From Octopus vulgaris (lineage: Eukaryota), in contig OX597815.1 of the NCBI GenBank assembly GCA_951406725.2, forward strand, positions 215,264,001 through 215,328,000: a stretch of DNA of 64,000 nt, given 5' to 3'. The position numbers were made by a program, and so were the translations under genes. The notes beneath the pieces were generated by a model. It was not told the origin of the DNA, ran no database searches, and worked only from the letters and a program-made list of their open reading frames with translations. Shown here in pieces: positions 11,626-62,510 of this stretch; the stretch's first letter is position 1, and every line of letters starts with the position of its first letter.

Positions 11626-11816
11626 ATGTTTCACCACGTAGTATCATATAGACGGTCTCTTGTGTTGATACTGTGTACGATATTGTTTTTGGAAACTCAA
11701 GCTGATTCATATACATGCAACATATGTAATTGCAATTCACTTAAATCGAATGTAGATTGTGCAAAGCGCAATCTAACATCAATTCCACAACCAATTCCGA
11801 CGAATGTTGTATATTT
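11626..11816 (+). CDS. First coding exon: signal peptide + LRR N-terminal cap
   Basis: Acceptor tttcttcttttacag ends at 11605. MFHHVVSYRRSLVLILCTILFLETQA (hydrophobic signal) is followed by DSYTCNICNCNSLKSNVDCAKRNLTSIPQPIPTNVVYL, a classic LRRNT. Donor TT|gtaag, phase 2. Confidence 0.92.
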
Positions 11817-15475: not shown

Positions 15476-15547
15476 ATATCTGTACAACAGCAACATTGCA
15501 ACCATCAAAGAAGGTACATTCACGGGTCTTTCGAATTTAAAGACATT
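15476..15547 (+). pseudogene. LRR cassette exon A1 (YLYNSNIATIKEGTFTGLSNLKTL) with defective acceptor
   Basis: 72-nt paralog of the other A exons with an intact TT|gtaag donor. The acceptor reads tataa instead of tatag. An in-frame cryptic cag lies at 15488-15490. Confidence 0.7.
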
Positions 15548-17704: not shown

Positions 17705-17776
17705 ATATCTTTTCAACAATAACATTTCAAGGATTGAAAAAGAAATGTTTCAAGGCCTTCACAGATTACAGGAATT
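17705..17776 (+). CDS. LRR cassette exon B1 (YLFNNNISRIEKEMFQGLHRLQEL)
   Basis: ctgcttcag|A...TT|gtaag, 72 nt, phase 2-2, typical 24-aa LRR. Confidence 0.9.
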
Positions 17777-18863: not shown

Positions 18864-18935
18864 AGGTCTTGGTGACAACAACATTGCAACCATCAAAGAA
18901 GGTACATTCACGGGTCTTTCGAATTTAAAGACATT
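18864..18935 (+). CDS. LRR cassette exon A2 (GLGDNNIATIKEGTFTGLSNLKTL)
   Basis: gctatag|A...TT|gtaag, 72 nt, phase 2-2. Confidence 0.9.
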
Positions 18936-31364: not shown

Positions 31365-31436
31365 AGATCTTTTCGGCAATAAAATTTCAAGGATTGAAAA
31401 AGAGATGTTTCAAGACCTTCACAACTTACAGTATCT
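31365..31436 (+). CDS. LRR cassette exon B5 (DLFGNKISRIEKEMFQDLHNLQYL)
   Basis: ctgcttcag|A...CT|gtaag, 72 nt, phase 2-2. Confidence 0.9.
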
Positions 31437-41153: not shown

Positions 41154-41221
41154 CTTCATAACACAGTGTAGGTAAAAACGCATCGGAGACTTTAGTCATC
41201 TGTCAAGTCACAGCAAGGACC

Positions 41222-42000: not shown

Positions 42001-42349
42001 TTTCCCTTCTCCTCAACACTTTGGATTATCCTCCTCTTCCCTACCACCAAATTCCCGACACTAAAATGTCCCTAAACTACGATAAAATAGAATCGTTTCA
42101 AGTGGCTAGTAATCTTATTTAAAAGTACTATATTATTCAATATGTAAGCTAAAAGAGAATAGAACCTTGATGCTTCCACTTTCTACTAGAAAGCATGTCA
42201 CATTATTGATGTTATTAACAACACTTAGAAAATAAATGTCATGACGTTTATAAACCTGCTCAAATTTTATAATCTTTGTTTCTTGTCAAATCACATAGGA
42301 ATTTCTCTGTTGATCTGAAACGCATTCAGAGTTCTCTTTATTATTACAG

Positions 42350-42507
42350 TTACCTCGAAAACAATAACCTTATGAAGTGTGGATGTCACTTGCCAGCCTT
42401 CGTTAAGTATATTAAAAAAGTCTATAACAGAAATCTGGATGTCTCTGGCACGTGTCAGGAAGGCTCAGGGAAACGAATACCTATACTGGATTATTCGCAA
42501 TGTCAAA
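42350..42507 (+). CDS. LRR C-terminal cap exon (YLENNNLMKCGCHLPAFVKYIKKVYNRNLDVSGTCQEGSGKRIPILDYSQCQ)
   Basis: ttattacag|T...A|gtaagt, phase 2-1; N-x(3-4)-CxC...C...C LRRCT pattern. Confidence 0.88.
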
Positions 42508-42713
42508 GTAAGTAAAATTCTCGTTTCTTCTTTTCTTTTATTATTAACACTAAGAAAATCCGGGTTATTCTCTGAAGCTTGCAATATCATGTCTTATGAA
42601 AGGGAAACTATAGATAAAGATATGAGGAATAAACGTTTTACCATTCGCACGCTTTTCATTCACATCTTCTCTCTAACGAACTTATAGATTCAACTGTATC
42701 ACACAAACCATCA

Positions 42714-42764
<51 letters not shown>

Positions 42765-43239
42765 ACACACGGGCGCGCGCACACACACATGCACAAATAT
42801 ACATATGCAAACATTCACAACAGCGCACACATGAATGTACGCTCACATGTACACACACATATGCACACAGACATACTCTCTAACCCTCTCTCTCACGTAC
42901 ATTCTCATTCTTAACTACATAAGCATAGAACAAAAGCAAATGAGTCATTGAAGCGGTCACGAATGACAACAAAATGTCGCTAACAACCATAACTGGTTGA
43001 TAGGTTAACCAAACGGTTAATCAAACATTCATTTAGTTAATTCGTTAACAAATTGTTAACAAAGTGACGAATATTAAAGTGAAATAGAACCAGTACGTGT
43101 GTTTATTATTGGCTAAATGACCCTCCCGAGATACAAAAAATGTTCCAGCATTCGATCCTGAGAAGAGGAAAACTTGGTAACAAAACCAAGCACACTATCT
43201 TCAGTTTGGTTTTCGTGCCCATCCTCATCTGTGGTCATG

Positions 43240-43640
43240 TATATTGGCTAACTACTGAACGAGTCTGATCGCAAACAGAAGCGGCCGAAATGTGATTCCT
43301 CCGAAAAAACTGGAGTAGCTTTACTCGACACAGTGTGTACCTTGGAGATGAGGGAGTCTCTCCAGATCGAGTCGGTACTTTTCCGTATTGTGCCTCTACA
43401 TTTCCGGTAATGCGGACATGCGATTAGGATGTCACATGACAAAATCGCAAGATCGAATCTTTAAAATGATGCAAAACAGCAGAGAATGTAGAGGTAGACC
43501 AAAAAGAGATGGCTAGAAAATATCCATTGCCTTATTTGGTCATGCTTGAGAATGCAATCAGCATGTGTATTGGCAGTTGCCTCTGATAGTACACTATGCA
43601 GGAGGTACCTGAGGCACCGGATGTCCTCATGACCCTCCCA
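43240..43640 (+). mobile_element. Probable RTE-like LINE 3' remnant
   Basis: Degenerate GHAIRM...GRPKKRWLENI motifs. Confidence 0.5.
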
Positions 43641-43829
43641 GGAATAATGAGCGTTGAAGATGGTAGATGGATGGATATACAGAGTGTCGGTATTAAATAT
43701 AACGATTTTATGTCATATTATATTAAGTAAAACTTAGTGTATTGGTAAAGAGTCAAAGGCGTTGGAGAGCATAAATATAAAGTTGTAGCTGACAAAAAGC
43801 TGATATGGAGGACTGGAAGCCATCTAAAT

Positions 43830-44034
43830 ATTCTTTTCTACTATAGGCACAAGGCCCGATATTTGGGGGGAGAGGGCCAGTCGATTAGATCGACCCCAGT
43901 ACGCAACTGCTACCCCGAAAGGATGAAAGGCAAAGTCGACCTCGGTGAAATTTGAACTCAGAACGTGAAAAAAACAGACGAAATACTGCTAAGCTTTGCG
44001 CCCGGTGTGTTAACGTTTCTGCCAGCTTGCCGCC
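43830..44034 (-). mobile_element. SINE family 2 copy
   Basis: Reverse complement begins ggcggcaagctggcagaaacgttaac...gagttcaaatttcaccgaggtcgactttgcc. Confidence 0.78.
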
Positions 44035-45419
44035 TTGAAAGCCATCTAAATATTGGAAAAGAGATACCTGTATTCATGATAATCCATGACGGTTACCAAA
44101 ATTCAGACACCATCACTGCTGTTCAATGCTCTGTGAACACTGTAAAGGCAGCAAGACGTGACACGGACAGTTGCAGTAGAATCTATAGGATAAAACTCGA
44201 ATACGAGAGAAAAGTTGCTTCAGAAGATCAAATACCAAGACAAGAAAAAAAAGAGCAAAATGCAGGCAGAACATTCAGTAATGTAAAATGTCTGAAAAAG
44301 ATGGCACACCTCATGAAGGTCAAATAATGTAAACGGTACAAGCAATGGGTTGGTACACATGGGTTAAGTGAGAAACAGAAAATGGCTGACGAATGGAGAG
44401 AAGAGCAAAAGTGGTTTTATTCGAAGAAGAGTGAACACGAATGGAAAGGGAGAGAAGAAGGGTGCGGTATGTGTGCGTATAGGGGAGGTAAACTGTTGCA
44501 GTTAGTAGGAGCCAAGCAGTAGTGGGAGGAAAAGGGAGGAGGAGGAGGAGAGAGAAGTGAGTGGTTTAGAGATACAAAGCAAAACGTTGGGTGTAAGAGT
44601 GAATGTGTGAGGGCAGCACTTGTGAGTATGGGTATGTGTGTGTGAGTGTGTGTATGTGTTTGAAGAGTGAGTGTGCGGGAATATGTATGAGTCTATGTAC
44701 CAGTGTGTATGCATTTGTATGTGTGTGTGTGTGTGTATGTGTGTGTGTGTTTGTGTGTAATAAAGTGTGAAGAGAGTAACTGTGCTACCGAAGTGAGATG
44801 TGTAGGTAGAAACTGTGGTCTAGCGTGTGAAGTGTGTATTAAGTGTAAATGTGAGCGGAGGGACAAATAATGTGTGGATGTGGGTTGGTAAGAGTGATGC
44901 TACGGAGGAGAGAGAGGTAGAAAACGAAGTAGAGAGGTAAAGAATATTTTTAGTGCTTAGCCAGGAAGACAGTCAATGCTCATTATCATTCAGAAGGCTG
45001 CTGTGATTGGTTGGGGGAAAGTAGGAAGATATCCTGAAACCAAAGACCTGCCTTGATTGTTTACAACAGAGAAGACTCCGGCATAAACAGCGAAGGTTCC
45101 AAATGACAGACTTAAAATGGGGTCCGATTAAGCACATCACTCGAGAGAATATACGAGTCAGTATGTATATGTATGTACATACGCACATACATACATACAT
45201 ACATACATACATGCATACATACATACATACATACATATATACATACATACGTACATACGTACATATATGAATACATACATACATACATACGTACATACAT
45301 ACATACTCATGGATGCTACAAGCCCTTCATCTAGCTAAATTTCCTGTGAGCCATAATCAAAGCCATAGCTGACCTGATTCCATTGTGGAACACCATCATG
45401 AAATTAAACACAAAGAGTG

Positions 45420-46460
45420 ATTATTATCACTGACAGAATACAATATCGCAAAGGCATATTCCGAGGGGACAACCTCGTGGTGATGTTGTTTATACTTTCT
45501 GTAAACCCTATGTCATTCATGTTAAGGATATCTCATTGGTTCACAAGGAAACAGAAATTCCAAAATTGAACGCTGTTTCTTTGTGGATGACTTAAAACAT
45601 TATGCAAAGAATATGGATGAGATGAAAAAGAGCCTTGACCAAGCTACAACATTCTCAAAAAATGTAGGGTTGGGGTTTGTTCAGGATAAATGTTATATGA
45701 TTGTGAAAAGGGGGGAAAATGTAAACCAGACTAGCAGCATCGCCATCAATGACCTGACTGTTTCCCCTATATCTGATGAGGAATGTTACAGATATCTTGG
45801 GGTGGATGAAAATATATCTCATAAAAGCGCCTATAACAAAGCAAATGCTTTTTTTAAAGGTGCCATTACGTTACAGGTGTCATTAAAGAATAAAGAAAGA
45901 ATATTACAGCTGAATGAATAAAATTTGGACCTCAGAAATCTATGCATTCAATAAAACATTGGCCCACAACGTGTTTGCTGTGCAAGTACTCATACTAACA
46001 TTTGGGCTGTTTTATTGGACACTTGATGAGGTTCGAGCTGTTTATGTGAAAACCCCGAAAATACTGACAAGTACACATAATTTCCACATAAACAGTGATG
46101 TAGACCGCCTCTCCTTAAAAGGAAAACAAGGCGGTAGGGGCTGAATATCGATGCCAAATGTCTTTGAATGTCGTATCATATCCTTTCAGTAACATCTTAT
46201 AACTACAAATGACGAAGTGCATCCCTTGACCAAGTTTGCATAATTCATATGACTTGGAAGGCAGCTCCTTGTGCAACATTCCTTATCTGATAATATAGAA
46301 TATATGCTCAAAGAGGTCGCATGACTCTACCGCAACGTATCATTAGATGAACGGATGAGGATCTATGAACAGAAGACTATGCATGGTTATGTTGGTAGAA
46401 AGTTCCGAAATGATAGAAACATTGATGCTGTTGAAATTCCAATGAAGCATCCGTAGATTT
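45420..46460 (+). mobile_element. Decayed RLE-type LINE RT remnant
   Basis: FVDDLKHYA...YRYLGV...NVFAV...HINSDVDRL...GGRG motifs across broken frames. Confidence 0.75.
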
Positions 46461-46654
46461 AGGAAATAACAGTGAATAATGACATGTATACATACATAAT
46501 ACATGCATACATACATACTTACATAAATACACACATACATACATACATACATACATACACACACACATACTTACATACATACACACATACATACATATAT
46601 AATACATACACACATACATGCATACCTACATACATGCATACATACATACATCAT

Positions 46655-46850
46655 TCATTCATTGTTCGACCGTGGTCGAGACAATGGAATTTACTATGTT
46701 ACGCCAGACTTCACGGTCCATCATAGCATTACGGAGGTCCTGTTCCTGGATGCCTGTATCCCTGGAGATTACATCAGGGTAGGAGAGTGTGCGCCGTCTG
46801 GCATTGCGAGTAGATGGCTTCCAGAGGAGAAGAGTAGAAATTACTTCTTT
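46655..46850 (-). mobile_element. RTE-like LINE extreme 3' end embedded in (CATA)n
   Basis: STLLLWKP...LSYPDVISRDTG...LRNAMMDREVWR followed by a short (TGAA)n tail. Confidence 0.65.
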
Positions 46851-47535
46851 TTTACTTACATACATACTCACATACACACATACATACATACACACACATA
46901 CATACATACACACATACATACATACATACATACATACATACATACATACATACATACATACATACATACATACATACATACATACATACATACATACATA
47001 CATACATACATACATACATACATACATACATACATACATAAACGTGTGTATATTGGAAAAAGTACCATATTGGTGATCATATTTTTTATTGTTTATCCAA
47101 ATATTGTTTAGCTCACTTCACATATTGTGGCCTTCTTCACATTCTATATGACATTGTAACATAACTTAAATGAGATTCTCAGGTTTCATTAGGGAGTTTC
47201 CACTGCAACAATGCTTGCAACTTTCGAATTTCATCCCTTTATTTGACTTGATCAACGATTTTCACGTGTTTGTTACATCAGAATACTAAAAGGACAACAA
47301 GTGACTTTCATGCTTCTCTCAGTTGAATTTGTGACATTATTGAAACATTTCCAAATGAACATAAAAATAGGTTTATAGTCTTTGTTAATAATTTGCTTTA
47401 TATGTCTAACATGTATTGATTTCAATACTAACGCGTATACATTTTTGTTTTACATCATAAGGAAAATATTTCTTGTTATTGCTATGCATTGCATTATTTG
47501 GTTCATAAATACAGATATTTACTTGTATTCTGTAG

Positions 47536-47621
47536 ATTACTCGTTATATCAACGGAATTTACAGTGTCAAACATGTTCAGGAATGATGTGCAATGAAGTG
47601 ACAAGCTGTCCAAGAGCAGAG
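47536..47621 (+). CDS. Exon: first half of Ly6/uPAR-like domain (YSLYQRNLQCQTCSGMMCNEVTSCPRAE)
   Basis: ttctgtag|AT...GAG|gtaaac, phase 1-0; LxCxxC start typical of LU domains. Confidence 0.85.
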
Positions 47622-49580
47622 GTAAACTGGAATATTACTTTCTTCCTTTTCGTTAAAATATATCCACAACCGTCACTCGAAAGCCATTAAGTCCACATAG
47701 ATTGTACTATGCTTTCGCTAGTTTTTTATGTACCTGCGTAGACATACACACACCCTATCGATCTTCTTATTCATGACTCAATGGGACGAGAAGGATGTGA
47801 CGATTGAAGAGAGAAATAGATGAACATCACTAGGTTGGGACACATTTCATTTGATTAGACTGGAACAAAGTGAATTGAAGTGCCTTGTTCAAGGACACAA
47901 CGTTCTTCCCTGTCCAGGAATCCCTATTCAAGAAACGAACACACGAACTTAGAGTGACCTTTCTCCGAAAAACATGGCTGTCCTTAGAGTAGGATGCATG
48001 AATGTATGTGGCCTTAAGTCAACTTGGAATCAAGGTTCCTTGTCGAATGACTTCGGGTCACCAACCTTAGAGGGGTAACTGGAAGTCGGACCTGGCCCTA
48101 CCAGCTCGCAAACATTACAGGGAGCGGATTGAATAAGTTAAGAAGCAAATGATAGTTTTCTTTCGTCTGGTGGCCATAGCAAAAGAGGTTGTTTGATGTA
48201 CGAGGTTATGAAATATTCGGAACAGATTAAATCTTCCCTCACATCAAGTAGTACAATAAGCTCTCCAGAACATAATAGGTGGGGGTCATATTGTTTCATA
48301 GAAAGGTAAAACCTATAACTTTAAAACGCAGCTAAAACACAATTAAAAAATGTCAGGTATATCTCTGAATACACAGTTGTACATTGGTGAAAGAAACACA
48401 AGAGAAACAATAAAAGACACCGGTAATGACACAGATCAATGCTTCACATTAACTGATCTACGAGAATATAGGAGAGTAGAGCGTGACATAAGAGCATGGC
48501 TGCATTCTGTTGTCTGTTTTATTGTCTGTTCTCATCTCAGACCTTTCTGTTTTCTTGAAGCTGAGTTAGCTTATTTAATGATTCATTCATTTGCAATCAC
48601 CGACTCCATTGGCTTTTTTGAAGACGGCAGCCTACCGACACTATCATTGGTTATTTCTTCATGACGTCCTCACTCAGTTTGGGAGATCTTTCTAAAAATT
48701 TTCCGTGATTGGAAGAAACGTGTTTCAATTCCAAGCTAAGGCAATGCATATCTTATTTCTAACTTCAATGTCTACATTTTGATTGCTTTTATTATTGTTA
48801 GGTGTTTGCGATTATTAATTGCGTTTTCATGATGGATTCTTTTCTTTAAATATTCTTCTCCATTTCTGATGTTTTTCGCTTTCAGAATGTCCCTTATTAA
48901 GTTTACAAGTCGTTGATGTTTTCTCTTCAAATTTTATACTAATATACCGTATTTTCATATAAAATATACTTGCAAAATAAAATGAAGTTTCTCTTGTGTT
49001 CGTTTTATGTATTTTCTGTTTTATTTGTTTGGACTGAGGAGTTCAAACTGGCAATTTTATTTCATTATCATCTTTGGGTAAAGGCATATTAGTTTCTGTT
49101 GTTGGTGAGTTTTGTACGCATGATTTTCCGTAAATTTTATATGAAAAATTCCTCTTGAGCATTCCTCCAGTAAGAAGAAATTTTAGAGAATTGATACATC
49201 TTTATTGGGATAATTTGACCTATTTTAAGTTGGGCGATGGGTGACAGTGCGATGCGATTTTGATACAGACCGTGATCCGATGGCCATATCTACTTGTGAT
49301 CAGAGAGCTCGGGACACTGTAAGCATTTAAAACATGATTTTTGAATACTAAATAGCAATGAATTTTACAGAAGTTTACTTATGCTGTTAACTTACAACAA
49401 TTCGGCAACTCTTTTACGGTTTCATTTATTGCTTTTGGGTATTTTAAAGCAATGATTAAACTTACTTGCATGTTAAACATCCCCAGTGGTGTTGCTTCTG
49501 TTGTTGTTGCTGTAATTTGCCGTAATCGTACTAATGAATATTTTGGTTTTAGTGTATAATTTTCATATCTATTATTACAG

Positions 49581-49764
49581 CCTGTATGCCGATTCGCCAT
49601 ATCAATGAACGGTGTTAAACTGAAGACTGAAAGGTCCTGCAGCACATACAGAAAATGTGTTGAAGCTATGAGAAACAATAACCTTACATGCAATAAACGG
49701 ACCAATGGCAAGTTTTGTGTTGGTTGTTGCGTTGGACACTTATGTAACAAGAATGATTTCATTG
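49581..49764 (+). CDS. Exon: second half of Ly6/uPAR-like domain (PVCRFAISMNGVKLKTERSCSTYRKCVEAMRNNNLTCNKRTNGKFCVGCCVGHLCNKNDFI)
   Basis: ttattacag|CCT...G|gtaagt, phase 0-1; ends in CxxCCxxxxCN, the LU/three-finger signature. Confidence 0.88.
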
Positions 49765-49877
49765 GTAAGTGTTATTTATTGTCTAATATAACACCAACAA
49801 GTTTATTACAAATTGATAGTTAATAAGAACATTTTATAGTAATTAATATACGGGAAAATATTTTGATGTGTGTATAC

Positions 49878-49949
<72 letters not shown>

Positions 49950-50044
49950 GTGTGTATATATATATTGTTTGCAATACTCTCTCTCCCTCTCTCCCTCCCC
50001 TCTCTCTCTCGCTCTCTCTAACACACACACACACACACACACAG

Positions 50045-50335
50045 ATTGAATCAAACACCACGACATGAAGGAAAAGAGTAAAAGAGAGCACTTTTGCCGA
50101 GTGAGCAAAATATTGGTTAGAAAGCTGAATGCCTGAAACATAATTTCGGCGATAAACTCGCACGCAGTCGCAGTAGTGCGGTTTGACGCTTGAAAACTGA
50201 AGTGGACAGAGGAGAAGCTAAAGGAGATGGACAGGAAGTCAAGAAAGGCCCTAACGAAGTATGGAGCCCATCATCCACGTGCTGACATTGATAGCCGATA
50301 CACGAAGAGAGCGAAAGGAAGAAAGGGACTGATAA

Positions 50336-50338
<3 letters not shown>
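50045..50338 (+). mobile_element. Short decayed RLE-type LINE fragment (paralog of 62511-63060)
   Basis: [33 protein letters not shown]...GRKGLIS, homologous to WTRNEL..IDRKTRK..HHPKSDIERLY..GGRGL. Confidence 0.75.
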
Positions 50339-50373
<35 letters not shown>

Positions 50374-50375
50374 AT

Positions 50376-50445
<70 letters not shown>

Positions 50446-50735
50446 TTAATAATAATAATAATAATTGTTATTTGAGGGAATAAAATCCAAACTTACAAGG
50501 AAAAAATTCAATTTAGAAATACTAAATCAAATTTCACACAATATAAGATATATATAAAAAATAAAAATAAAAAAAACACCTTTTATCAATTCAAAATGAA
50601 CAATTAAATTACACCATCTAGAAAATTACTTATAATAGAAATATAAAAATTAAAATAACTATAAAATGTCGATGATTAAGTAAATTGCAAAAAATGATAA
50701 TAATAAAAACGTATATAATAGGTAGATTAAGAATA

Positions 50736-50793
<58 letters not shown>

Positions 50794-50913
50794 TTTTTAA
50801 GTATATATGTGATTATGAATGTATATTTTTATCTATGTATGTGGGTTTTATGTGCATCTATGACGTGTGTCTCATTTATAAACGCAGCGATTATTTTCTA
50901 TATCAATCCATAG

Positions 50914-50996
50914 GCTGGACCAAATCCTTCGTATTTCGTTTGATTTTTAAGAAGTTCAACGAATATAAAATCCCTGCTGAGAACATATCAAGAGCC
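50914..50996 (+). CDS. Exon: SEA-like domain part 1 (GWTKSFVFRLIFKKFNEYKIPAENISRA)
   Basis: tccatag|GC...GCC|gtgagt, phase 1-0, fits both neighbours. Alternating hydrophobic beta-strand followed by a helix. The SEA label is an inference. Confidence 0.75.
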
Positions 50997-51332
50997 GTGA
51001 GTAGATATCTGCCCTCTCTCTCTCTCTCTTTCTCCGCACACAGACGCGCGTGCGCGCACATACACACACATACACACACACACACATGCATATTTTATAG
51101 AAGAAATGTGAAACGTCAAATAAAAAGTGAGGTTTCATGAAATTCAGACAATCAACTCCATTTACTGATAGTAAACTATTACATAAAAGTTTCTTTTTTA
51201 ACTTACTGAATTTTTGCTGGTCAATAAAAACACTGTTCTATCCACTATTTTGTCTTAATATATTCCGTGATATAATTTCCGATTCAGACAGTAAATAAAA
51301 TCCTACTCAAATATTCACTAATCTTGTGTTTA

Positions 51333-51407
<75 letters not shown>

Positions 51408-51562
51408 GAACATCTGTAATCACACTCTTCCCTTTGGTAATATTTTTCTTCTCTCAACATTTTCGATTTCCTTTCTGCCAAAGAGATATGCTCGGAACAT
51501 TAAAAACCCTTTCATTTCCCCCACTTTACCGAGTGTCAAGCTAATATATTTATATATAATTA

Positions 51563-51815
51563 TATTCTCAAACGCAGGATAATGCTAATATTATAGCATG
51601 AACAGGATAAACTATTCACCTGTTGCCGAAAACTCTGTCGGTGGCCAGTTTATGCGTCTTATAAAGCTAGATGTATATAGCCTAAATTTGCAGAAGTATT
51701 TGTATGGGGTGTGAGTTGTAGTCACATAGCTGGCCGCCGACAGATTTTTCTGCAAATTATGGATATTTCAACCGGTTCACGTTATATCATTAGCATTATC
51801 CTGCGTTTCAGAATA
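51563..51815. mobile_element. MITE-like fold-back element
   Basis: tattctcaaacgcaggataatgctaat pairs with attagcattatcctgcgtttcagaata (26 of 27 nt); inner tctgtcggtggccag pairs with ctggccgccgacaga. Confidence 0.8.
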
Positions 51816-51923
51816 AAATTATTTCTTTATTTTTCAATACATCTCAACGCTTTTAAATCAAACTTTGTTTCTTGAATTTAATGTATGTATATATATATAT
51901 ACATACACATCCGGCTTTTGCAG

Positions 51924-51976
51924 ATGGAGCATGACCTTTCAACCGTGACGGGAACATTTAGAGTTGAAGACTGTGG
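51924..51976 (+). CDS. Exon: SEA-like domain part 2 (MEHDLSTVTGTFRVEDCG)
   Basis: cttttgcag|ATG...GG|gtaagc, phase 0-2, fits the chain. Confidence 0.75.
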
Positions 51977-52424
51977 GTAAGCAAATGCTTCTAACACATT
52001 TATTCAAATTTATTTGGTTTTGTTCCAAACATTCGATTTTATTGCATGTATTATACATCACAATAATCAACAGTGTTGTTCTTGTGACCCACAATATACT
52101 AATTAATACATTCAATGAAATGTTTAAGTGTTTTATCAATGTTTTATTATACGAAGGACAAACAAACCCATATAAAGATACAGAGAGAACTGTATATATA
52201 TATATACATACACAGTCAAAAATTGTGAAGCATGACTGTCACCACTACTACATGAACCTGAAGATTGCAGAATTTAATGTATGAAAGTACTAGTTCAATC
52301 AGAATGAACATTTAACATTCTATTATTTTATTTTATTTTATTATATTATATTATATTATCTTATAATATATCATTATAAGATTGTAAATAAAACGTAAAA
52401 ATCAGACAAGGTTGGAATTCCTTT

Positions 52425-52483
<59 letters not shown>

Positions 52484-52505
52484 CATATATACATATACAT
52501 ACATG

Positions 52506-52553
<48 letters not shown>

Positions 52554-52789
52554 CGCATTGAGTCGAAACAGTGGTAGCTGAAGAAGGGGAATGTTCCTTG
52601 TATTGTTTTTCTTGCACTCTGTTTTTTCGTTGTTGAAAAAAGTCCGTTTCCTTGTTTTATTTTATGTTTTCGTTTCTCGTTGTGTTCTACGTTTATTTGT
52701 GGTGTCCTGTACTCATATATGCATGTATATACATATAGATGTAGGTATGTACATATATGTATGTTTTATTTATTAAATTGTTGTATATA

Positions 52790-52835
<46 letters not shown>

Positions 52836-53287
52836 CATATGCATACACACATATATATATACACACATATATATACACACATATATGGGTGTGTATATAA
52901 ATAAATTGAGGTGGGTATCGGCAATTTGAAACCAACAAGGAAATAATTCACAGTCACTAAGTGTGAAAAGAGTGCAGTGAGCACCAGCATTATTAGAAAT
53001 ATTAGTCATAGACTCCTTAGCCACAAAAAGACATATGGTCTGTTTGCATTGACAGTGGGGAGAACATTCCCCACGGTAAGCCAGATGGATTAGATTAGCA
53101 TGGCGATTTCTTATAGGAAGTTAATACTCATCAGCAATGCTCACTCCATTACGGCTGATGGAGGCTAACTCACGCCTCTCAGTATCATTGAGAATGCCAT
53201 AAGAATGAGTGATTGATTTCACAAAATGGCAATGTGAAGGTTATAAAATATTTAAGGTGGCTAACACGCAATTTAAAACCAACCGGG

Positions 53288-53367
<80 letters not shown>

Positions 53368-53899
53368 TAAAGTGTATTTAAAGATATATGCAGGGAGTGA
53401 AGACCTTCATGTGGATTTCTTAGTGGACGAATATATTCTTAAGACCAACTTTTAGTCACCCGCTTGTAGTTCTAGCCTTCTTCACTAATTCTGTTCTCAA
53501 CCATACTGAATGCGGTTATTTTAGCTATGATGATCCAATCCTGAGCTATATTTGAATATAGTGATAGAAAGCGATGTGAAAGACAGTGGTGATGGTGGTG
53601 GAGCGAAAAGTGATGAAAAGTAGTGATGGTGATGGCGTCAGAAGTCTGGATGGCGTGTGTATGGCAGATATGGTGGTGATGGTGGTGGTACTGTTGTTTA
53701 TCATGAAGCTTTGCAATAAGTTCCGAGTCGACAAATTATATCATTGCTTAGATGAAAATTGTTCATTGCTTGAGAAATATTCATGTTTCATGAAATTTAA
53801 TATGTACTCAATGCATGATGTCATTGTTGGGCCCAAGGATCAATAGGGCAGCTTTTGAACGAGTGTATGTATATTTATATATATATATATATATATATA

Positions 53900-54725
53900 T
53901 AACTTAGATAAAACTTAGATATGTTTCGACCAGAGATTGGTCCAGGCCATGTCTAACTTAATAGCACCACCTGATAGGATTATTCGAATCCTGTTTAAGT
54001 CAAGTTTTGTTCAAGTAGTGAGTTCTTGTTGGGTGAGTTGTATCCAGTTTTGTTCAAGTAGTGAGTTCTTGTTGGGTGAGTTGTATCCAATTATGGGTGG
54101 CTTATCTGGTATTCTTTGAAGGAATCTATCCAGACTCTGTTTGAAGTTGATGGGATCCTTTTCCTCTTTGATCTCCCTCGGGACAATGTTAAATAGGGCA
54201 GGGCCTGTTGAGGAAAAGAAATTATGTTGCAGTGTACATGTATGTTGTGATCATGAATTTGGCAGGGGACGTATAGCCCGTGGTCCAAGTCTTGGATGAA
54301 CCTTGAAGCTAATGTTTAGGTCGTTTGGGCAAAGTTGGCGGTATATTTTCCACATCGTACAAATGATGTACCGCTCACAGCGACGCTGGAGGGAGTAAAG
54401 TTTCAAGGCTTTAAGGCGATCCCAATAATCGAGAGCAGCCATGCCTTCAATTCGTTTAGTGAGAGCCCTCTGGGGTGACTCAATTCTGGAGATGTTTTGT
54501 CTTGTGTGAGGAGACCACAGTGGGCAGCAGTATTCAAGGTGTGGCCGTACAAAGGAGGAAAAAAGTGGGTATGATGACACCTTGTTCTCTGGACCGGAAA
54601 GTTCTTAAGATCCAGGAACTCATCCTACGAGCTATATCGACCTTCTTGTTGATGTGTGCACTCCAACTGAGATCGTCATCAACAATTACACCCAGGTCTC
54701 TGATATTGTTAGAGGCTGTGAGCGG
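53900..54725 (-). mobile_element. CR1-like LINE 3' remnant
   Basis: LFSSFVRPHLEYCCPLWSP...IESPQRALTKRI...LKLYSLQRRCERY. Contains a 43-bp tandem duplication at 54003-54088. Confidence 0.82.
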
Positions 54726-54895
54726 TATATATATTTATATATATACGGTATATATATAGCGGTATATATATACGGTATATATATAGCGGTATATATATAT
54801 ATCAATGTATGTATACTTCTATCTATCTAGATAGATAGATAGCTACATACATGCATACATACCGACATACATGTATGTATTTATTTTTATTTCAG

Positions 54896-55050
54896 CTCAA
54901 ACAGAAATAAAATATTTGCTATTTACTGTACAGTATTTAGCGAAATCACTGAAAGTCAACTACGGCACATTATCTCCGAAACTTTGAACAAATCCCAGGC
55001 ATTGCTTAACTTAGGAGTTTCGCAAAGCAAAATGAAATTCATTGATGAAA
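54896..55050 (+). CDS. Exon: SEA-like domain part 3 (SNRNKIFAIYCTVFSEITESQLRHIISETLNKSQALLNLGVSQSKMKFIDE)
   Basis: tttttatttcag|C...A|gtaagt, phase 2-1, open for 155 nt. Confidence 0.82.
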
Positions 55051-55942
55051 GTAAGTATCGTGTTTCTTATTAATTTTATCATCATTACCGTCATAATTAG
55101 CTTCATCAATCACCAACCTCTTCGCCGTTGTCGTCATCATCAACCACAGTAGATGATACCAAGCACACAGACTCTCTCACTCTCTCTCTCTCTCTCTCTC
55201 ACACAACTATTTATTTACATTTTCTCAAAGCTTGGATAATTTAAAAAAAACAGCATTTTATTTTGCGCTTTTCCGTTTCTTGTCCCTACGGAACTGTTTG
55301 TCTTTGCTCAATTTCTTTTTAATTATACCAATTAACCGAGGGCAAAAATGTTTTCTCCTTATTTTGTATAGAAGTAGAAGATGCAGACTCTACTGGGCAG
55401 AAAAATTCAAACAATTCCAGTAATTCAAACAGGAAAACTATTTAGTGCTGCAAATATTTTTCCTCAGCGGAATTTCATTTTGTTTGAAGTGATCATATTA
55501 ATTTTTGAATAAGAAACGATAGATGCACACACACAGCTCATACGCTTTAAACAATGTCTAAGAGATATAAGAGAGGAACAAATCATATCCCATTGCCGAA
55601 AAATGATATATTTTCTCTTCGTTTCCATTCATTTCATTTTACCATCGCCAAATCAATATAACATCTACCTATTTCTAGCATACATTAGGTTTTGCGTTTC
55701 CGGTCAGTATGTCTAAAGAGTGATCAATATATTGACGAAATTCAACACTAGAGGCCACGAAACAGACTAGCATTCTGAGTAGTCATATCCCGTAATCAGT
55801 TATATATTGCTCGAGAAAATATAAAAATATATATACATATACACACCTCTATTTCGGGATGGCATTTAAAAAAATATTTTTTTAAGAATATAAAAGTAAA
55901 TATATATTTAGAAGCATACATACATACATATATATACATATG

Positions 55943-56012
<70 letters not shown>

Positions 56013-56314
56013 GGTGTTGTGTGTGTGTGTATATATATATAATTTAAATCAGAGATAAAACCACTACTAGGCAAATCAAGCAGTGAAAACCATAAACCAA
56101 AACATAAAAAAATTAATATAATATACAAACTATATAAACTATAAAATATAAAATTTCAAATTTAAATTATTTAGATTGAAAATTAAAATTATTAATTTAT
56201 ATTTATAAATTTTTATGAATTTTAATTTTTTTTCAATTAAAAACTTTAATATAAGATGTATATATGTATATATATATATATGTGTGTGTATATATATATA
56301 TATATGTATATATA

Positions 56315-56354
<40 letters not shown>

Positions 56355-56389
56355 TAAGAAAGTTGGTTTGTGAAAGCACGTGGTTGAAT

Positions 56390-59182
56390 ATATAGAAAAT
56401 AGTAAAAAATGAAAAAACTACAGAAGGCTTAAAGGTTAAAAAATATATATATTTGCGTCAATATGTCTGAAGAATATTAAAAAAAATTTTTCCTTACAAT
56501 GACATAGTTTAGAAGAAAGACCGGTTTCACGTTTAGCTTTTCAAATTTCTTACGACGTTATGTTTATGTTGAATAGAGTTATCGTTATGTTTATGTTTAA
56601 AAGAGTTCTAACCCTAATAAGGAAAAACCGAAGATAATCAATCTTTCAACCAAACCTCTTTCTAACATAAAAATTGACATCCTCTCAAAAGGGCTCAAAT
56701 TTACACCAACTCCACGCAGAGCCAACCTAAATGAAATCAAGGATAATATAACAGAATTTTGCAGAAAATTAAGACTAGCAGAAGCATCAACCAGTTTCAA
56801 TACTGAAGATGAATCACTAGTCAAGAACAAAAGTGAACACATCCCACACAGAGGAAGAAATAACGATCTTGATGAATTCTGTAACCACATTGAGAACTTT
56901 CCCTACCATAATATACATAAACAGAAAGTTAACTCAAATTTTAACACTACACAATGGAAGGAACTGATAGAACTTCAAAATGATGAGGATATAACCATTA
57001 AGGAAGCAGACAAGGGAAATGCAGTTGTAATAATGGATACATCATACTATAGAAATCTTGTAATTTCCTTGCTTGATGACGACCTACATTATGAAAAAAT
57101 TACCAACTACACCCCACAAAAAATAATGAAAACTCTATCTTCACTAATTAAAACCCATGAAAAGGAACTAACAACCAAAGAGATTGACTTTCTAACAAAC
57201 TTTAAATGCAAACCTAGCCTTTTCTATGGTCTGCCAAAAATTCATAAAAGCCAAATTATAAATGAAACCATTAAAAAATCACTAAAGACATACATACACA
57301 CACCTAACCCGGGGGACCTAAAACTACGACTCATTGTAGCTGGCCCAACCTGTGAAACACACAGACTAAGTCTATTTATGGACATCCTCCTGAAACCCTT
57401 CCTTAAACATATCAATAGCTATATCAGAGATGACTTAGATATGTTAAACCACCTTCCAAAAAAAGCCAAGGAAGAAACAATCCTGGTTTCATTTGATGTA
57501 GTTAACTTATATACCAGTATACCTCATAATTATGGACTAGAGGCAATACAGTTCTGGCTGGACCAATTTCCGGAAGAAATACCAAAAGGATCAGTAAAGA
57601 ATTCATTACTAAATCAATTGAATTCATCCTACATAATAACCACTTCATGTTTGACAATACATTTTACCGTCAAAAATCCGGAATTGCTATGGGTACAAGG
57701 GCAGCACCAGTCATTGCGAACCTAACAATGGGCTACATGGAAATAATCATTTACCAGGAATCTTTATCAATCTTTGGAAACCCCCTTTCTCAATACATAA
57801 AAGAGAATTGGAAACGATTCTTAGACGATTGTTTTATACTCTGGAATGAAAACACAGATAAACTCCTAAAATTTAAAAACCTATTGAACAGCATAAACCC
57901 AAATATACAGTTCACAATGGAATACAACCAAAAGGAGCTCCCGTTCTTGGATATACTAATTAAAAAAATTAACCTTAAAATAGAAACACATTTTTTACAA
58001 AGCCACAGACGCCAAACAATACCTTCTTTTAATTCATGCCACCCAAGACACACTAAAACAAACATCCCCTTCAACCTTGCAAGAAGGATATGCACAATAG
58101 TGTCAGAACAAAATACCAGGAACTTTAGACTGCAAGAACTCAAAAACACCCTAATTGACAGACATTACCCAGCTCAACTCATAGAGGATGGGATCAGACG
58201 TGCAACATAAATCAACATAGAAACTTTAAGAAAAGTTCAACACAACAACACACCTTCCCCGAAAATAGTACCTTACATATCTACATACAACCCCAGAAAC
58301 AAAGAAGCCTTCACCATCATCACCCAGAATTTACCAATACTTCATAAGGACCCCAAATTAAAGGAAATTCTAAACATACACCAAATCATTAAAAGCTACA
58401 AACAACCTAAATCACTTAAAAAGATTCTCACAAAGGCAAAATTGTTTTCTGAAATTACGGATGCAAAAGTAAAAAAATGTGGTAGATCGAACTGTACAAC
58501 ATGTCCAAACCTGCTAGAAGGATCAGAATTCCTCTTTAAAGAGGGACAGAAATTCAAGATCAAATCTAACTTTACTTGTGCTCTGAAAACATAATTTATG
58601 TCATAAAATGCTCGGGCTGCCACCAAGACTACGTGGGATCCACGGGACTATCACTCAGACGTAGATGCACACTGCATCGACAACAGATTACATTCCCAGA
58701 ATACAGAATGATACCTTTTAGTGAGCACATTGAGAAATGCGCAAAGCAACTACTACCACAATTTTTAATCTTTCCATTTTACCAATGTGCTATCGGATCA
58801 TCAACACAAATTAGACTAAACAAGGAAACATTCCTCATTGAAAAGTACAAGCCCAGACTTAACCATGCCAACATACTGATACAGAGAAATTCACACCAAG
58901 AGAAAGGAAAAAATTTTAAGCGATTATCTCCCTTACACCGGAAGAAATCACTCATTACCTCCCCTTATTTAGAACTCTTTTAAACATAAACATAACGATA
59001 ACTCTATTCAACATAAGCATAACGTCGTAAGAAATTTGAAAAACTAAACGCGAAACCGGTCTTTCTTCTAAAGTATGTCATTGTAAGGAAAATTTTTTTT
59101 TAATATTCTTCAGACATATTGACGCAAATATATATATTTTTTAACCTTTAAGCCTTCTGTAGTTTTTTCACTTTTTACTATT

Positions 59183-59190
<8 letters not shown>
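56390..59190 (+). mobile_element. Penelope-like element (RT + GIY-YIG, frameshifted) with about 220-bp inverted terminal copies of its 3' end
   Basis: KEADKG, FYGLPKIHK, SFDVVNLYTSI, GIAMGT, RFLDD, LPFLD, IIYVIKC..C...YVG.T. 56390-56611 is the reverse complement of 58969-59190. Set in (TA)n. Confidence 0.93.
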
Positions 59191-59267
<77 letters not shown>

Positions 59268-59732
59268 CATATATAATCTACAGGATATCAAGTGGTTATG
59301 GTGTTTCAAGCAGCTTAATTTAATTAAACAATAGAATCATTACATCAATTTAAATGCAATGCCATCTTCAGCTGCATAAATAAAGAAATAGAATTTCAAT
59401 AAGTAGGACACTTTAATGTAATTTTTCTCAAATATTTTAACAGAGCAAAAGATGGAGAAATTCATGTTGTCGCTATTCTAGTTAAGAATAGACTACTCTT
59501 CCAAGAATTGCATGGAGCCTGGTTGGGGTGGGGGTCCTTGTGTTGTAAGGGATTGTAATTCATTTCTAAATCATTTATCTCTTTATAAACTACAAAATGA
59601 AAAACTAGAAATCTATTTTGAATATTTATATATGCTCTCCGTATATGTTTGTAACACTTCATGTATCATTGTCCTCAAATCAGCCAGCAGGTCCAAACAA
59701 TATATTTCCAAAATTAACTACTGCTGCTGCTG

Positions 59733-59786
<54 letters not shown>

Positions 59787-59821
59787 GCTTCTTTCATGTC
59801 CATATTTTGCTTCTTTTTCAG

Positions 59822-59936
59822 TATTTTGTGATAAAAGCACAACTTCAACTAACAATGGAGCTTTCTCTTGGCCAATGACAAAAATAGGAACTACTGCGGA
59901 GATCCCATGTCATGGAAATGTAGCCACCAGGCATTG
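59822..59936 (+). CDS. Exon: HRM domain part 1 (IFCDKSTTSTNNGAFSWPMTKIGTTAEIPCHGNVATRHC)
   Basis: ttctttttcag|TA...TG|gttcgt, phase 1-2; C..WPxTxxGxxxxxxC..AxRxC is the class-B/adhesion GPCR hormone-binding motif. Confidence 0.88.
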
Positions 59937-60356
59937 GTTCGTTTGTATTGATTTATTTCTACTCAAAGTTTGAAGTTTTCAGCGTCATCCTATTGTGAGA
60001 GAATGTTACTTGGTAGAGCAAATAACAGCTTTATAGATTAACAAGATAGAATTAAACGTCCATCGGTTGCAATCTCTTGTCCCAGCATTTTTACATTTTA
60101 TACATTATTTGATATAATTTAGCCTTGTCCTAACTATCTAGGTTTGCTTTGTCGCCAATATTATACAAAGCTTTCATTTCATTCGTTTTTATGTTCTGAG
60201 TTCAAATTCCGCTAAGGTCGACTTGTACTTTAATTTTTTCGGGTCGATGAAATAAATACCAATTGAGCACTGGGGTTGGTGTAAACGACTTATCCCTTCC
60301 CCTGAAATTGCTGGCCTTGTGCCAAAATTTGAAACCAATATTAGACAAGGCTTTAT

Positions 60357-60572
60357 GGTGGAGAGCTGGCGGAATCGTTACCATGCCGGACAAAATGCTT
60401 AGCAGCATTCATTCCGACTTTACATTCTGAGATCAAATGCCACCAGGGTCGACTTTGTCCTTCATCCTTTCGGGATCGATAAAATAAGTACCAATTAAAC
60501 ACTGGGGTCTATGTAATCGAATTATCCCAGCCCAAAATAGCTGGTCTTGTGCCAAAATTTGAAATCAGTATT
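60357..60572 (+). mobile_element. tRNA-derived SINE, family 2 (preceded by a tandem partial copy at 60180-60340)
   Basis: gagctggcggaatcgtta...gtcgactttg..ttcatcctttcgg..tcgataaaataagtacca. Paralogs at about 12275-12490 (+), 36935-37082 (-), 43830-44034 (-), 62164-62378 (+). Confidence 0.8.
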
Positions 60573-61357
60573 ATTCAAAGATTTAAAGATTCTTGTAAGT
60601 TCCAGAATTTCACAAAACAATTGTAGGAAAGAAAGCACATACCTAGATACAGCCAATAGAATCTATCGGTGATTCTGTTGGTTTCAGGCTAATATTATTT
60701 ATTCAATTTTATGATTACTATAGAGCTATATATCTTGCTAGTACATGATGGTCATCCTGGGATTTCACTCATCACAGACTATGTAACACGGTCTCTCTTC
60801 TCTCATTTCTACCACGTCATTCCACAGGTTAAGCATCTAAATTGTTCCTCCCAGAGGCTGAGCTTTATTAGTTTTAAGACAAGACCAACTGGTGGAATTA
60901 CTCAAATCTGTGCATATGTAGGAAAATATACATAAATCCATTGCTGCCGCTGTTGCTACCGATGTCTATGGTGGCGAAATATTAGCAACTAATTCCCCCA
61001 TTCAACTTGAACTAACAACTTGGCTCCTTAATTCTGCATCACCTACACCGTTCCAACTAATCTTGTATTGAATAATCATAAAAACAACAAATTATTGTAA
61101 ATAAAAACAGATGCAGGAATATTGTTTTTATATCTGAACTCTAGTTAGAAAATATTTGACATTAGTTTTGAGGATAGGGGTCAGGAGTAAATAATAGATT
61201 TCTCCCCCAAATGCAAGACACCATTTATCCTTCTTTCACTAAATTATGAGTTCAAATCACGACCAGTTCGAAGGTTTCTTATATTCCTCTGAGATTGATG
61301 AAATTCTCCTCAGAATGAATAAACTCGACTGACAATATTTAACATTTATTTTTTCAG

Positions 61358-61500
61358 TTCTTCCAGAACGATGGGGCATCCAGAAATGGCATCAAGTCAA
61401 AACATGTCATCACAAAAGTGTTCACCGTTTACTGGTATCTGGCAAGAACCAGACATGTCTCAATGTTACAATGCAGAACAGAGCAAAGGCATTGATGATG
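61358..61500 (+). CDS. Exon: HRM domain part 2 (SSRTMGHPEMASSQNMSSQKCSPFTGIWQEPDMSQCYNAEQSKGIDD)
   Basis: tattttttcag|T...G|gtgagc, phase 2-1; GxWxxPDxSxC closes the HRM domain. Confidence 0.88.
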
Positions 61501-62378: not shown

Positions 62379-62510
62379 TATTATTCTGTTTATTATGCTC
62401 TTTTATTTACACGATTCTTTCATTTCATGTTCATTCATCGTTTACAATGCTCCCTTCTCCCTCCCCCACACGCTCCCTCTCTCTCTCTCACTCACACCCA
62501 CACACACACA

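What the first reader, a model, noticed from the sequence alone, without database searches (positions are those of the whole stretch)
42350..61500. Unusual ectodomain architecture: LRR + three-finger (Ly6/uPAR) + SEA-like + HRM
Seen: after LRRCT the spliced frame gives LQCQTCSGMMCNEVTSCPRAEPVC...RSCSTYRKC...TC...FCVGCCVGHLCN (12 Cys, terminal CCxxxxCN), then a ~95-aa alpha/beta segment, then a clear HRM motif. The LU, SEA-like and HRM modules are each bounded by phase-1 introns, the hallmark of exon shuffling. Established: vertebrate LRR-bearing aGPCRs (ADGRA2/GPR124, ADGRA3/GPR125) are LRR-Ig-HRM-GAIN. LU domains typically occur in small GPI-anchored or secreted proteins (CD59, Lynx1, Sleepless/Quiver, three-finger toxins) and usually have 8-10 Cys. 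Inference: a lineage-specific aGPCR with a three-finger module, a combination I do not recognise.
Basis: partly seen in the sequence, partly recalled or inferred. Interest (0 to 1): 0.75.

Follow-up and report, generated by a model that had tools for sequence, protein, structure and literature searches.

The report
Octopus secreted LRR three-finger receptor ectodomain
This octopus gene carries the outer part of an old mollusc-and-worm adhesion receptor (leucine-rich repeats, a three-finger domain, a SEA-like domain and a hormone-receptor domain), but this copy likely lacks the membrane part and would be secreted, and its repeats change fast on their binding face, which suggests a variable recognition protein.

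Summary
The exons, phase-1 module borders and 12-Cys segment are real. A paralog model folds as a three-finger domain plus a ferredoxin/SEA-like domain, and RNA-type contigs of the family join the modules. One correction: 676 aa needs an LRR cassette with an AA acceptor; the clean chain is 652 aa.

The locus is Octopus vulgaris CAI9718876.1, in the published octopus adhesion-GPCR 'group 3'. The architecture is not lineage-specific: gastropods, a scallop and an annelid have it. Its core resembles ADGRG6, not ADGRA, and LU-bearing GPCRs are in print for starfish, molluscs and arthropods.

This copy's model runs HRM, second SEA-like piece, terminal exon, without GAIN/7TM; 0 of 25 such models have GAIN or TM. 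It is likely secreted; DNA beyond 64000 could not be read. Its one-LRR-per-exon cassettes show 9-fold and 3.7-fold excess amino-acid change at concave-face codons over intron rates.

The scan reported this hypervariable LRR family before on other DNA of this genome. Verdict: new variant of a known kind.

The parts
11626..11816 (+). First coding exon: signal-peptide-like N-terminus and LRRNT
   Evidence: Pfam LRRNT E 2.7e-4; hydropathy peak 3.3 at residues 12-22
15476..15547 (+). Type B LRR cassette with AA instead of AG acceptor; probably dead (or an assembly error)
17705..17776 (+). LRR cassette, type A, 72 nt, phase 2-2
18864..18935 (+). LRR cassette, type B
   Evidence: exact in P0005
20426..20497 (+). 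LRR cassette, type A
   Evidence: exact in P0005
23850..23921 (+). LRR cassette, type A
   Evidence: exact in P0005
24702..24770 (+). LRR cassette, type B, 69 nt (one codon short)
   Evidence: exact in P0005
27168..27239 (+). LRR cassette, type B
   Evidence: exact in P0005
28051..28122 (+). LRR cassette, type B
   Evidence: exact in P0005
29712..29783 (+). LRR cassette, type A (skipped in the P0005 model)
31365..31436 (+). LRR cassette, type A
   Evidence: exact in P0005
32578..32649 (+). LRR cassette, type B
   Evidence: exact in P0005
36365..36436 (+). Last full LRR exon, conserved type across paralogs
42350..42507 (+). LRRCT exon, phase 2 in, phase 1 out
   Evidence: its 3' end is the loose end before 47536 in contigs of 3 of 4 runs
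47536..47621 (+). LU (three-finger) exon 1, phase 1 to 0
49581..49764 (+). LU exon 2, phase 0 to 1, ends CCxxxxCN
   Evidence: joint to LU exon 1 in 4 of 4 runs; fold
50914..50996 (+). SEA-like exon 1, phase 1 to 0
   Evidence: loose end behind 49765 in run X6
51924..51976 (+). SEA-like exon 2, phase 0 to 2
   Evidence: exact in 8 paralog models
54896..55050 (+). SEA-like exon 3, phase 2 to 1
   Evidence: alignment with paralogs
59822..59936 (+). HRM exon 1, phase 1 to 2
   Evidence: Pfam HRM E 0.0056
61358..61500 (+). HRM exon 2 plus remnant of the first GAIN helix (9 codons shorter than in 7TM-bearing paralogs), phase 2 to 1; next exon lies beyond the window
   Evidence: joint to HRM exon 1 in 3 of 4 runs and a SEA-exon loose end behind 61501 in X5

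Best explanation
The gene is a young Octopus copy of an old lophotrochozoan adhesion-GPCR family (LRR-LU-SEA-HRM-GAIN-7TM) that has likely lost the GAIN and membrane exons and would be secreted as a receptor ectodomain, whose fast-changing LRR face likely binds variable, probably microbial, ligands. Shown: exon chain, one LRR per 72-nt phase 2-2 exon multiplied by tandem duplication of exon plus introns, excess amino-acid change at concave-face codons, conserved LU/SEA/HRM, family membership. Predicted: three-finger and SEA-like folds, signal peptide, no TM or GPI signal in the annotated product. Inferred: unequal crossing-over changes LRR number between copies while selection diversifies the binding face; LU-SEA-HRM acts as a constant stalk; the soluble form binds the same class of ligand as its membrane paralogs and acts as opsonin, decoy or co-receptor, while the 7TM paralogs signal through GAIN cleavage and a tethered agonist. 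No ligand is known.
For: Locus identity: 15 of 20 exons exact in P0005, which continues into a second SEA-like piece and a terminal exon resembling the C-terminus of the 7TM paralogs, with no GAIN/GPS/7tm_2 hit and a maximum 19-residue hydropathy of 0.26 in its last 60 residues. 25 of 52 young-clade models have HRM followed by SEA2; 0 of 25 have GAIN, GPS or TM motifs; 18 of 25 end in that terminal exon; they come from two species and several chromosomes. Among proteins over 1062 aa only P0006 matches SEA2 (1 of 74 candidates) and it lacks HRM. Two X5 contigs run from 61501 into a SEA exon. The first GAIN helix is cut by 9 codons here. Selection: minimum 15 non-synonymous changes at concave codons against 1.6 expected at the intron rate (type A, 5 exons, P 3e-10) and 18 against 4.9 (type B, 6 exons, P 4e-6); pN 0.445 concave against 0.048 elsewhere and 0.05-0.07 in introns for type A. 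Across 63 typed LRR units entropy at x3, x5, x7, x8 is 2.2-3.1 bits, while LU is 84-89% and HRM 91-96% identical within the clade. One group 3 homolog has 71% of its expression in skin and 17% in sucker.
Against: DNA past 64000 could not be read; the GAIN-less end rests on gene models, and P0005 is imperfect (it misses exon 1 and 29712 and skips SEA exon 2). P0006/P0013-type models splice a SEA exon straight into GAIN, so SEA2-to-GAIN splicing is possible. The decisive RNA loose end is 11 letters in one run, from a table that was cut (626 rows not shown), and contigs differ from the window at several places, so they come from paralogs or alleles. Non-concave codons change at 0.9 of the intron rate, so no purifying signal is seen there, and gene conversion could lower the intron yardstick. 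Type B position 18 is also variable (2.3 bits). SEA2 is modelled with pLDDT under 50 and lacks a strand. The other two group 3 homologs checked are broadly expressed, one highest in axial nerve cord (25%), one in retina (21%). No immune evidence was found.
Confidence: 0.55

Rival explanations
1. The locus is a complete membrane adhesion GPCR: GAIN and 7TM exons lie downstream, and the short form is a mis-annotation or a minor splice form.
For: Close paralogs have GAIN-GPS-7TM (P0030, P0027). P0006, P0010, P0013, P0014 and P0020 join a SEA exon to GAIN. The last window exon ends in phase 1, as GAIN exons would need. An earlier scan note describes a 50-LRR member as a receptor (unchecked).
Against: 0 of 25 HRM-SEA2 models have GAIN/GPS/TM; none among long proteins (weak by the tool's own note); first GAIN helix shortened; P0006, P0013 and P0014 read DRL/KSF where the cleavable members read HL/T.
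Confidence: 0.2
2. The variable LRR face serves an endogenous code (cell identity in arm nerve cord, skin or suckers, or mate/self recognition), not microbial recognition; the soluble form would modulate adhesion between cells.
For: Ritschard et al. report group 3 expression in axial nerve cord, suckers and skin and propose a role beside protocadherins. LU proteins often modulate the host's own receptors (PMC13719153 introduction).
Against: A 4- to 9-fold excess of amino-acid change confined to the concave face is the pattern reported for lamprey VLRs and Ectocarpus candidate pathogen receptors; group 3 is gill- and skin-rich in C. minor.
Confidence: 0.15
3. It is a transcribed, decaying duplicate of the receptor, multiplied passively in a repeat-rich region.
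For: One dead cassette (15476), one cassette a codon short, a clipped GAIN helix, a partial SEA2, non-concave codons at the intron rate, many fragmentary paralog models, and a place away from the main cluster (215-Mb record against 21-Mb and 12-Mb records).
Against: 20 exons over 50 kb stay open with intact splice sites; concave codons evolve faster than neutral DNA, which decay cannot give; the same truncated design is kept in two species.
Confidence: 0.1

Closest known systems
Octopus-expanded adhesion GPCRs, group 3 of Ritschard et al. 2019 (PMC6408891)
   Same: Three homologs found here (A0A0L8FLR8, A0A0L8HDZ7, A0A0L8GYR2) are listed as group 3; LRRs in 5 of 22, tandem clusters, branch-level positive selection.
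   Different: The text read and the InterPro supplement name no LU/uPAR or SEA domain (0 hits) and no site under selection; GAIN-less members could not enter a 7TM-based set.
LU-bearing GPCRs of starfish, molluscs and arthropods (PMC11595613; PMC13719153)
   Same: A three-finger domain in a GPCR ectodomain; the 2026 paper's Fig. 2 legend lists LRR and GPS among its domain symbols.
   Different: No mention of SEA, of an octopus expansion or of soluble forms in the text read; figures and supplements could not be seen, so this very architecture may be drawn there.
ADGRG6/GPR126 (CUB-PTX-SEA-HormR-GAIN-7TM; PMC6954182)
   Same: SEA-HRM-GAIN-7TM core; paralog P0027 hits ADGRG2 (229 bits) and ADGRG6 (209 bits) first; the SEA-like model aligns to 6v55 residues 376-505 (Z 8.1, rmsd 3.0, 87 aligned).
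   Different: LRR + LU replace CUB + PTX; no GSVVV or furin motif in the SEA loop; this copy is predicted to lack GAIN-7TM. Orthology was not tested.
ADGRA2/ADGRA3 (LRR-Ig-HRM-GAIN; architecture recalled)
   Same: N-terminal LRR solenoid and HRM.
   Different: LU + SEA in place of Ig; GPS-7TM only 23-24% identical to two LRR-Ig-HRM proteins.
Lamprey VLRs and Ectocarpus ROCO LRR exons (PMC3900441; PMC3341825)
   Same: 24-aa LRR modules with variation on the concave face; in Ectocarpus one 72-nt exon per LRR, dead cassettes and varying LRR number.
   Different: The gene is complete in the germline, with no sign of somatic assembly; no inverted cassette in this window; the stalk comes from an adhesion GPCR.

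Membership tests
Adhesion GPCR (this locus's product) | GAIN domain with GPS | tested here: not met
   Absent from P0005 and from 25 of 25 HRM-SEA2 models. Tested on gene models only; downstream DNA not readable.
Adhesion GPCR (this locus's product) | Class B-like 7TM | tested here: not met
   No 7tm_2 in P0005; no hydrophobic segment at its C-terminus; same caveat.
Adhesion GPCR (gene family) | GPS + 7tm_2 behind the same ectodomain, with HL/T-type cleavage motif | tested here: met
   P0027, P0062, P0085, P0093, P0097 and others.
Octopus group 3 (Ritschard 2019) | Homology to listed group 3 genes | tested here: met
   Three cluster members are group 3 rows; the locus nests among octopod members in a tree of 26 rows.
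Ly6/uPAR (LU) domain | Cys-rich 60-90 aa unit ending CCxxxxCN | tested here: met
   12 Cys in 77 aa; 10 invariant and 2 at 90% or more in 32 rows.
Ly6/uPAR (LU) domain | Three-finger fold | tested here: met
   Predicted only: 9 of 10 Atlas rows are LU-type clusters, TM 0.63-0.77; 7 of 7 PDB rows on this part are LU proteins, best Lynx2 Z 7.7, rmsd 2.6, 79 aligned. A 15-residue helix in the third loop is unusual.
Ly6/uPAR (LU) domain | Pfam LU profile above its cut-off | tested here: not met
   UPAR_LY6_2 E 0.25 on one exon; no LU family on 8 full proteins at E 0.1.
Ly6/uPAR (LU) domain | Canonical disulfide pairing | not testable with these tools
   Model coordinates are not returned.
SEA domain | Ferredoxin-like beta-alpha-beta-beta-alpha-beta fold | tested here: met
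   43 of 50 rows align to this part.
SEA domain | Closer to SEA domains than to other ferredoxin folds | tested here: inconclusive
   Gpr126 Z 8.1 and 2e7v Z 7.7 tie with unrelated folds (best 8.7); Pfam SEA E 5.5e-5, under cut-off, in the Haliotis homolog only.
SEA domain | GSVVV autoproteolysis motif (optional feature) | tested here: not met
   Loop reads CGSNRNK here and is not conserved; motif from PMC6954182.
ADGRA | LRR-Ig-HRM-GAIN order and ADGRA-type 7TM | tested here: not met
   No Ig; 35-41 bits to two LRR-Ig-HRM proteins against 257-313 bits to molluscan family members.
Variable lymphocyte receptor | Incomplete germline gene assembled somatically from cassettes | tested here: not met
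   Complete spliceable frame in the genome.
Variable lymphocyte receptor | Variation concentrated on the concave LRR face | tested here: met
   VLR pattern from PMC3900441.
Variable lymphocyte receptor | Clonal expression in immune cells, antigen binding | not testable with these tools
   Needs single-cell data and binding assays.
Ectocarpus-type shuffled LRR exons | One 72-nt exon per LRR, dead cassettes, varying number between paralogs | tested here: met
   12 full-repeat exons, one dead; 3 to 14 LRR cores in young paralogs by a simple pattern, 3-4 in five gastropod and bivalve homologs.

The most novel reading that the evidence does not exclude
Octopus vulgaris and O. sinensis have a germline-encoded, antibody-like repertoire made from an adhesion GPCR: paired membrane and secreted forms share a constant LU-SEA-HRM stalk and carry a hypervariable LRR head whose frame-preserving one-repeat exons are reshuffled between copies and perhaps skipped combinatorially, giving cephalopods a VLR-like recognition system of independent origin.
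Probability: 0.25. Interest if true: 0.85.

Novelty: new variant of a known kind. Interest (0 to 1): 0.5.

Why it matters
The architecture itself is an old, poorly annotated lophotrochozoan receptor type; naming its LU and SEA-like domains fixes the annotation of the octopus group 3 expansion and gives an ADGRG6-like core with a different head. The larger point is the predicted soluble subfamily with a positively selected LRR face. Diversified recognition molecules are known from snails (FREPs) and arthropods (Dscam) (PMC13428168 passages), and those passages name none for cephalopods. If these proteins circulate and bind microbes, they would be a testable candidate for variable recognition in octopus and an example of a GPCR ectodomain turned into a secreted binder.

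Tried and rejected
Own genome not held, so nothing past 64000 was read; tblastn of six family proteins on 61501-64000 gave no hit at E 1. Foldseek on the LU+SEA model gave no match at E 0.001; the Atlas had no model for P0022 and no feature hits. No run was on record as RNA ('no RNA holder listed'); the four runs laid are guessed RNA and hold intron-covering contigs too. A search for short proteins joining SEA2 to the terminal exon gave 11 of 15 candidates, all from genome annotation and none from an RNA assembly, so that junction is not shown by RNA here. A 23-nt inverted match between type A exons and their downstream intron (E 0.011) was tested as an RNA-editing duplex: energies were no better than shuffled introns (34 to 57 of 60 shuffles as low or lower); rejected. 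Two 66-nt LRR-like hits at 16114 and 19502 lack an AG acceptor and two 69-nt hits lie in LINE sequence; dropped. The all-helix model of SEA2 was not trusted, because GAIN sequences of other rows can fall into those columns. Literature searches for this architecture or a soluble form: 4 papers; 3; 41, 20 listed; 0; 2; 0; 1; 37, 10 listed; 1; none of the listings or texts read describes LU+SEA in octopus group 3 or a GAIN-less subfamily, but the library lacks most subscription papers and the figures and supplements of PMC13719153 were not visible. No complex prediction was run, as no partner is claimed.


Full report
Observation. The window is AT-rich animal DNA with one large + strand gene. Twenty exons from ATG 11626 to 61500 splice to an open 652-aa frame with AG/GT at every internal junction: signal-peptide-like start and LRRNT, 11 LRR exons in phase 2-2 (ten of 72 nt, one of 69), LRRCT, a 12-Cys segment in two exons, a 97-aa segment in three exons, and HRM in two exons. 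On single exons Pfam gives only weak hits (LRRNT 2.7e-4, UPAR_LY6_2 0.25, HRM 0.0056), which explains why databases miss the middle domains.

Identity. The second LU exon finds 31 octopus proteins among 33 candidates. P0005 (CAI9718876.1, Octopus vulgaris) contains 15 of the 20 exons exactly, 14 of them in no other of the 48 proteins then stored, so it is this locus's model. It misses exon 1, cassette 29712 and part of the SEA-like segment, so it is imperfect. Three homologs are group 3 rows in the supplement of Ritschard et al. (parts 1-4 of 6 of the text read; supplement searched).

Folds. The Atlas model of P0005 residues 296-388 matches LU-type clusters in 9 of 10 rows (TM 0.63-0.77). An AlphaFold model of the LU + SEA stretch of paralog P0017 (LU 88% identical; 36-row alignment) has mean pLDDT 82.7. 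Against 48,161 solved chains, all 7 listed rows on the first part are LU proteins (Lynx2, Prod1, GPIHBP1, Lypd6b, Lynx1, CD59, PSCA; Z 6.8-7.7). The other 43 rows lie on the second part, a ferredoxin-like fold, where Gpr126 (Z 8.1, rmsd 3.0, 87 aligned) and a SEA domain (Z 7.7) tie with unrelated proteins. These Z values are middling by the tool's own note, and Foldseek found nothing at E 0.001. 'Three-finger' is well supported; 'SEA-like' is the right strength, helped by position before HRM-GAIN and a sub-threshold Pfam SEA hit in the abalone homolog.

Splicing. In four runs guessed to be RNA, contigs join the two LU exons (4 of 4 runs; only X7 has 31 or more letters on both sides), continue upstream into the LRRCT exon (3 of 4) and downstream into SEA exon 1 (X6). 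The HRM exons are joined in 3 of 4 runs (23-29 letters on the short side). The contigs differ from the window at several sites, so this shows splicing in the family, not expression of this copy. A Logan-only 1155-aa homolog lies whole on a 4.2-kb contig (P0062), which implies a spliced transcript with the full LRR-LU-SEA-HRM-GAIN-7TM order (inference).

Age. A search of 1.84 billion representatives with P0004 gave 58 hits. Named ones include Argonauta, Haliotis, Aplysia, Biomphalaria, Nucella, the scallop Ylistrum and the annelid Lamellibrachia (20 of the hits were looked up), all with LRR and GPS, all but the partial Argonauta record with 7tm_2, and the same 12 Cys. The architecture is therefore lophotrochozoan. 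Its GAIN-7TM is nearest ADGRG2/G6 among solved structures, and distant from two LRR-Ig-HRM proteins. ADGRG6 is CUB-PTX-SEA-HormR-GAIN (PMC6954182, passages). LU domains in GPCR ectodomains are published for starfish (PMC11595613, passages) and for molluscs and arthropods (PMC13719153, parts 1-3 of 4; figures and supplements not seen).

This copy probably lacks the membrane part. After HRM, P0005 continues into a second, partial SEA-like module and a short terminal exon that resembles the C-terminus of the 7TM paralogs. Of 52 stored young-clade models, 25 have this HRM-to-SEA2 junction; none of the 25 has GAIN, GPS or TM motifs, and 18 end in the terminal exon (isoforms included, so loci are fewer). 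They come from O. vulgaris and O. sinensis and from several chromosomes. Two contigs of X5 run from 61501 into a SEA exon (11 letters). The first GAIN helix, encoded in the last window exon, is 9 codons short. In a tree of 26 rows on the LRRCT-to-HRM region the locus sits in a clade of 10 young rows (100/99) next to 7TM members (long branches flagged among the distant rows). Against this: five models join a SEA exon to GAIN, the downstream DNA is unread, and no RNA-derived protein shows the SEA2-to-terminal junction. I put a soluble main product at about 0.7.

The LRR head is under diversifying selection. The cassettes fall into two types, duplicated with their introns in units of 0.5-3 kb at 66-89% identity, repeats included. 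Concave-face positions (x2, x3, x5, x7, x8, x10) were chosen beforehand from recalled LRR geometry; the model puts the strands at x3-L4-x5. In 5 type A exons these codons need at least 15 non-synonymous changes against 1.6 expected at the flanking-intron rate (46 changes in 422 sites); in 6 type B exons 18 against 4.9 (49 in 152). Other codons run at 0.9 of the intron rate (4 against 4.6; 11 against 12.4). Variable codons alternate with unchanged ones (L6 and N9 identical in all five type A exons), which a mutation hot spot or a conversion tract would not give. Across paralogs, entropy at x3, x5, x7, x8 is 2.2-3.1 bits in 19 type A and 44 type B units (of 68 distinct; core residues are fixed by the search pattern; type B position 18 also reaches 2.3). 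LU and HRM stay 84-89% and 91-96% identical within the clade. The counts are tree-free lower bounds, and intron homogenisation would inflate the ratios. The pattern matches VLRs (PMC3900441, passages) and Ectocarpus LRR exons (PMC3341825, abstract and sections 15 and 22), but the gene is complete in the germline, so it works like a variable LRR binder and is not a VLR.

Mechanism. Most likely (0.55): a secreted ectodomain with a variable LRR head on a constant LU-SEA-HRM stalk, binding fast-changing outside ligands, beside membrane paralogs that keep the HL/T cleavage motif. Secretion, ligand class and the role of LU are inferred. Rivals: full receptor (0.2), endogenous identity code (0.15), decaying duplicate (0.1). 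Expression data for three group 3 homologs are mixed: one skin-specific (71%), two broad.

Earlier notes. My reading was written down first. Later look-ups showed eight notes on other pieces of this genome that describe the same hypervariable LRR family, three of them with predicted secreted members (8 of 40 fitting notes shown). They are unchecked AI notes and add no independent support. What this window adds is the tested LU and SEA-like folds, the RNA joins and the lophotrochozoan range.

Verdict. Real; new variant of a known kind; interest 0.5. The LU-in-GPCR idea alone is known in print and would score lower; the soluble, positively selected subfamily carries the interest.

Noticed in passing
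window 56388-59192 (intron between SEA exon 3 and HRM exon 1): Penelope-like element: broken RT (RVT_1 E 0.0014) and GIY-YIG (E 0.0028) frames on +, between 224-nt inverted arms, 97% complementary, with (TA)n outside.
   Followed up: partly
window 39147-41719, - strand: LINE with a 646-aa open RT frame (RVT_1 E 7e-32, zf-RVT); related broken copies at about 1060-3400 on + (seen).
   Followed up: partly
window 15084-33157: The introns between LRR cassettes hold long (TTC)n-rich tracts that are duplicated with the exons; they may promote unequal crossing-over.
   Followed up: partly
window 60172-60543: Very high contig depth in all four runs: a high-copy short repeat.
   Followed up: no
window 42300-42349: Several O. 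vulgaris models, P0005 included, use an upstream acceptor that adds 18 residues before LRRCT; possibly an annotation artefact.
   Followed up: no
P0001, P0002, P0003, P0004: Paralogs with two or three tandem LU domains, as expected for a phase 1-1 module.
   Followed up: partly
P0006, P0013, P0014; P0030: GPS motifs changed at the cleavage site (DRL/KSF; DYL/TSF), so some membrane paralogs may be uncleavable.
   Followed up: no
P0050 (O. bimaculoides), P0083, P0113 (O. vulgaris): A Death domain at the C-terminus of one receptor (Pfam E 3e-6; also noted by Ritschard et al.); two O. vulgaris models join a similar segment (P0083 is named Death domain-containing by UniRef) to the SEA2-terminal exon.
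   Followed up: no
window 17965-17987, 20686-20708, 24110-24132, 31623-31645: 23-nt inverted match to the start of type A exons in the downstream intron; no better than shuffles as an RNA duplex.
   Followed up: yes
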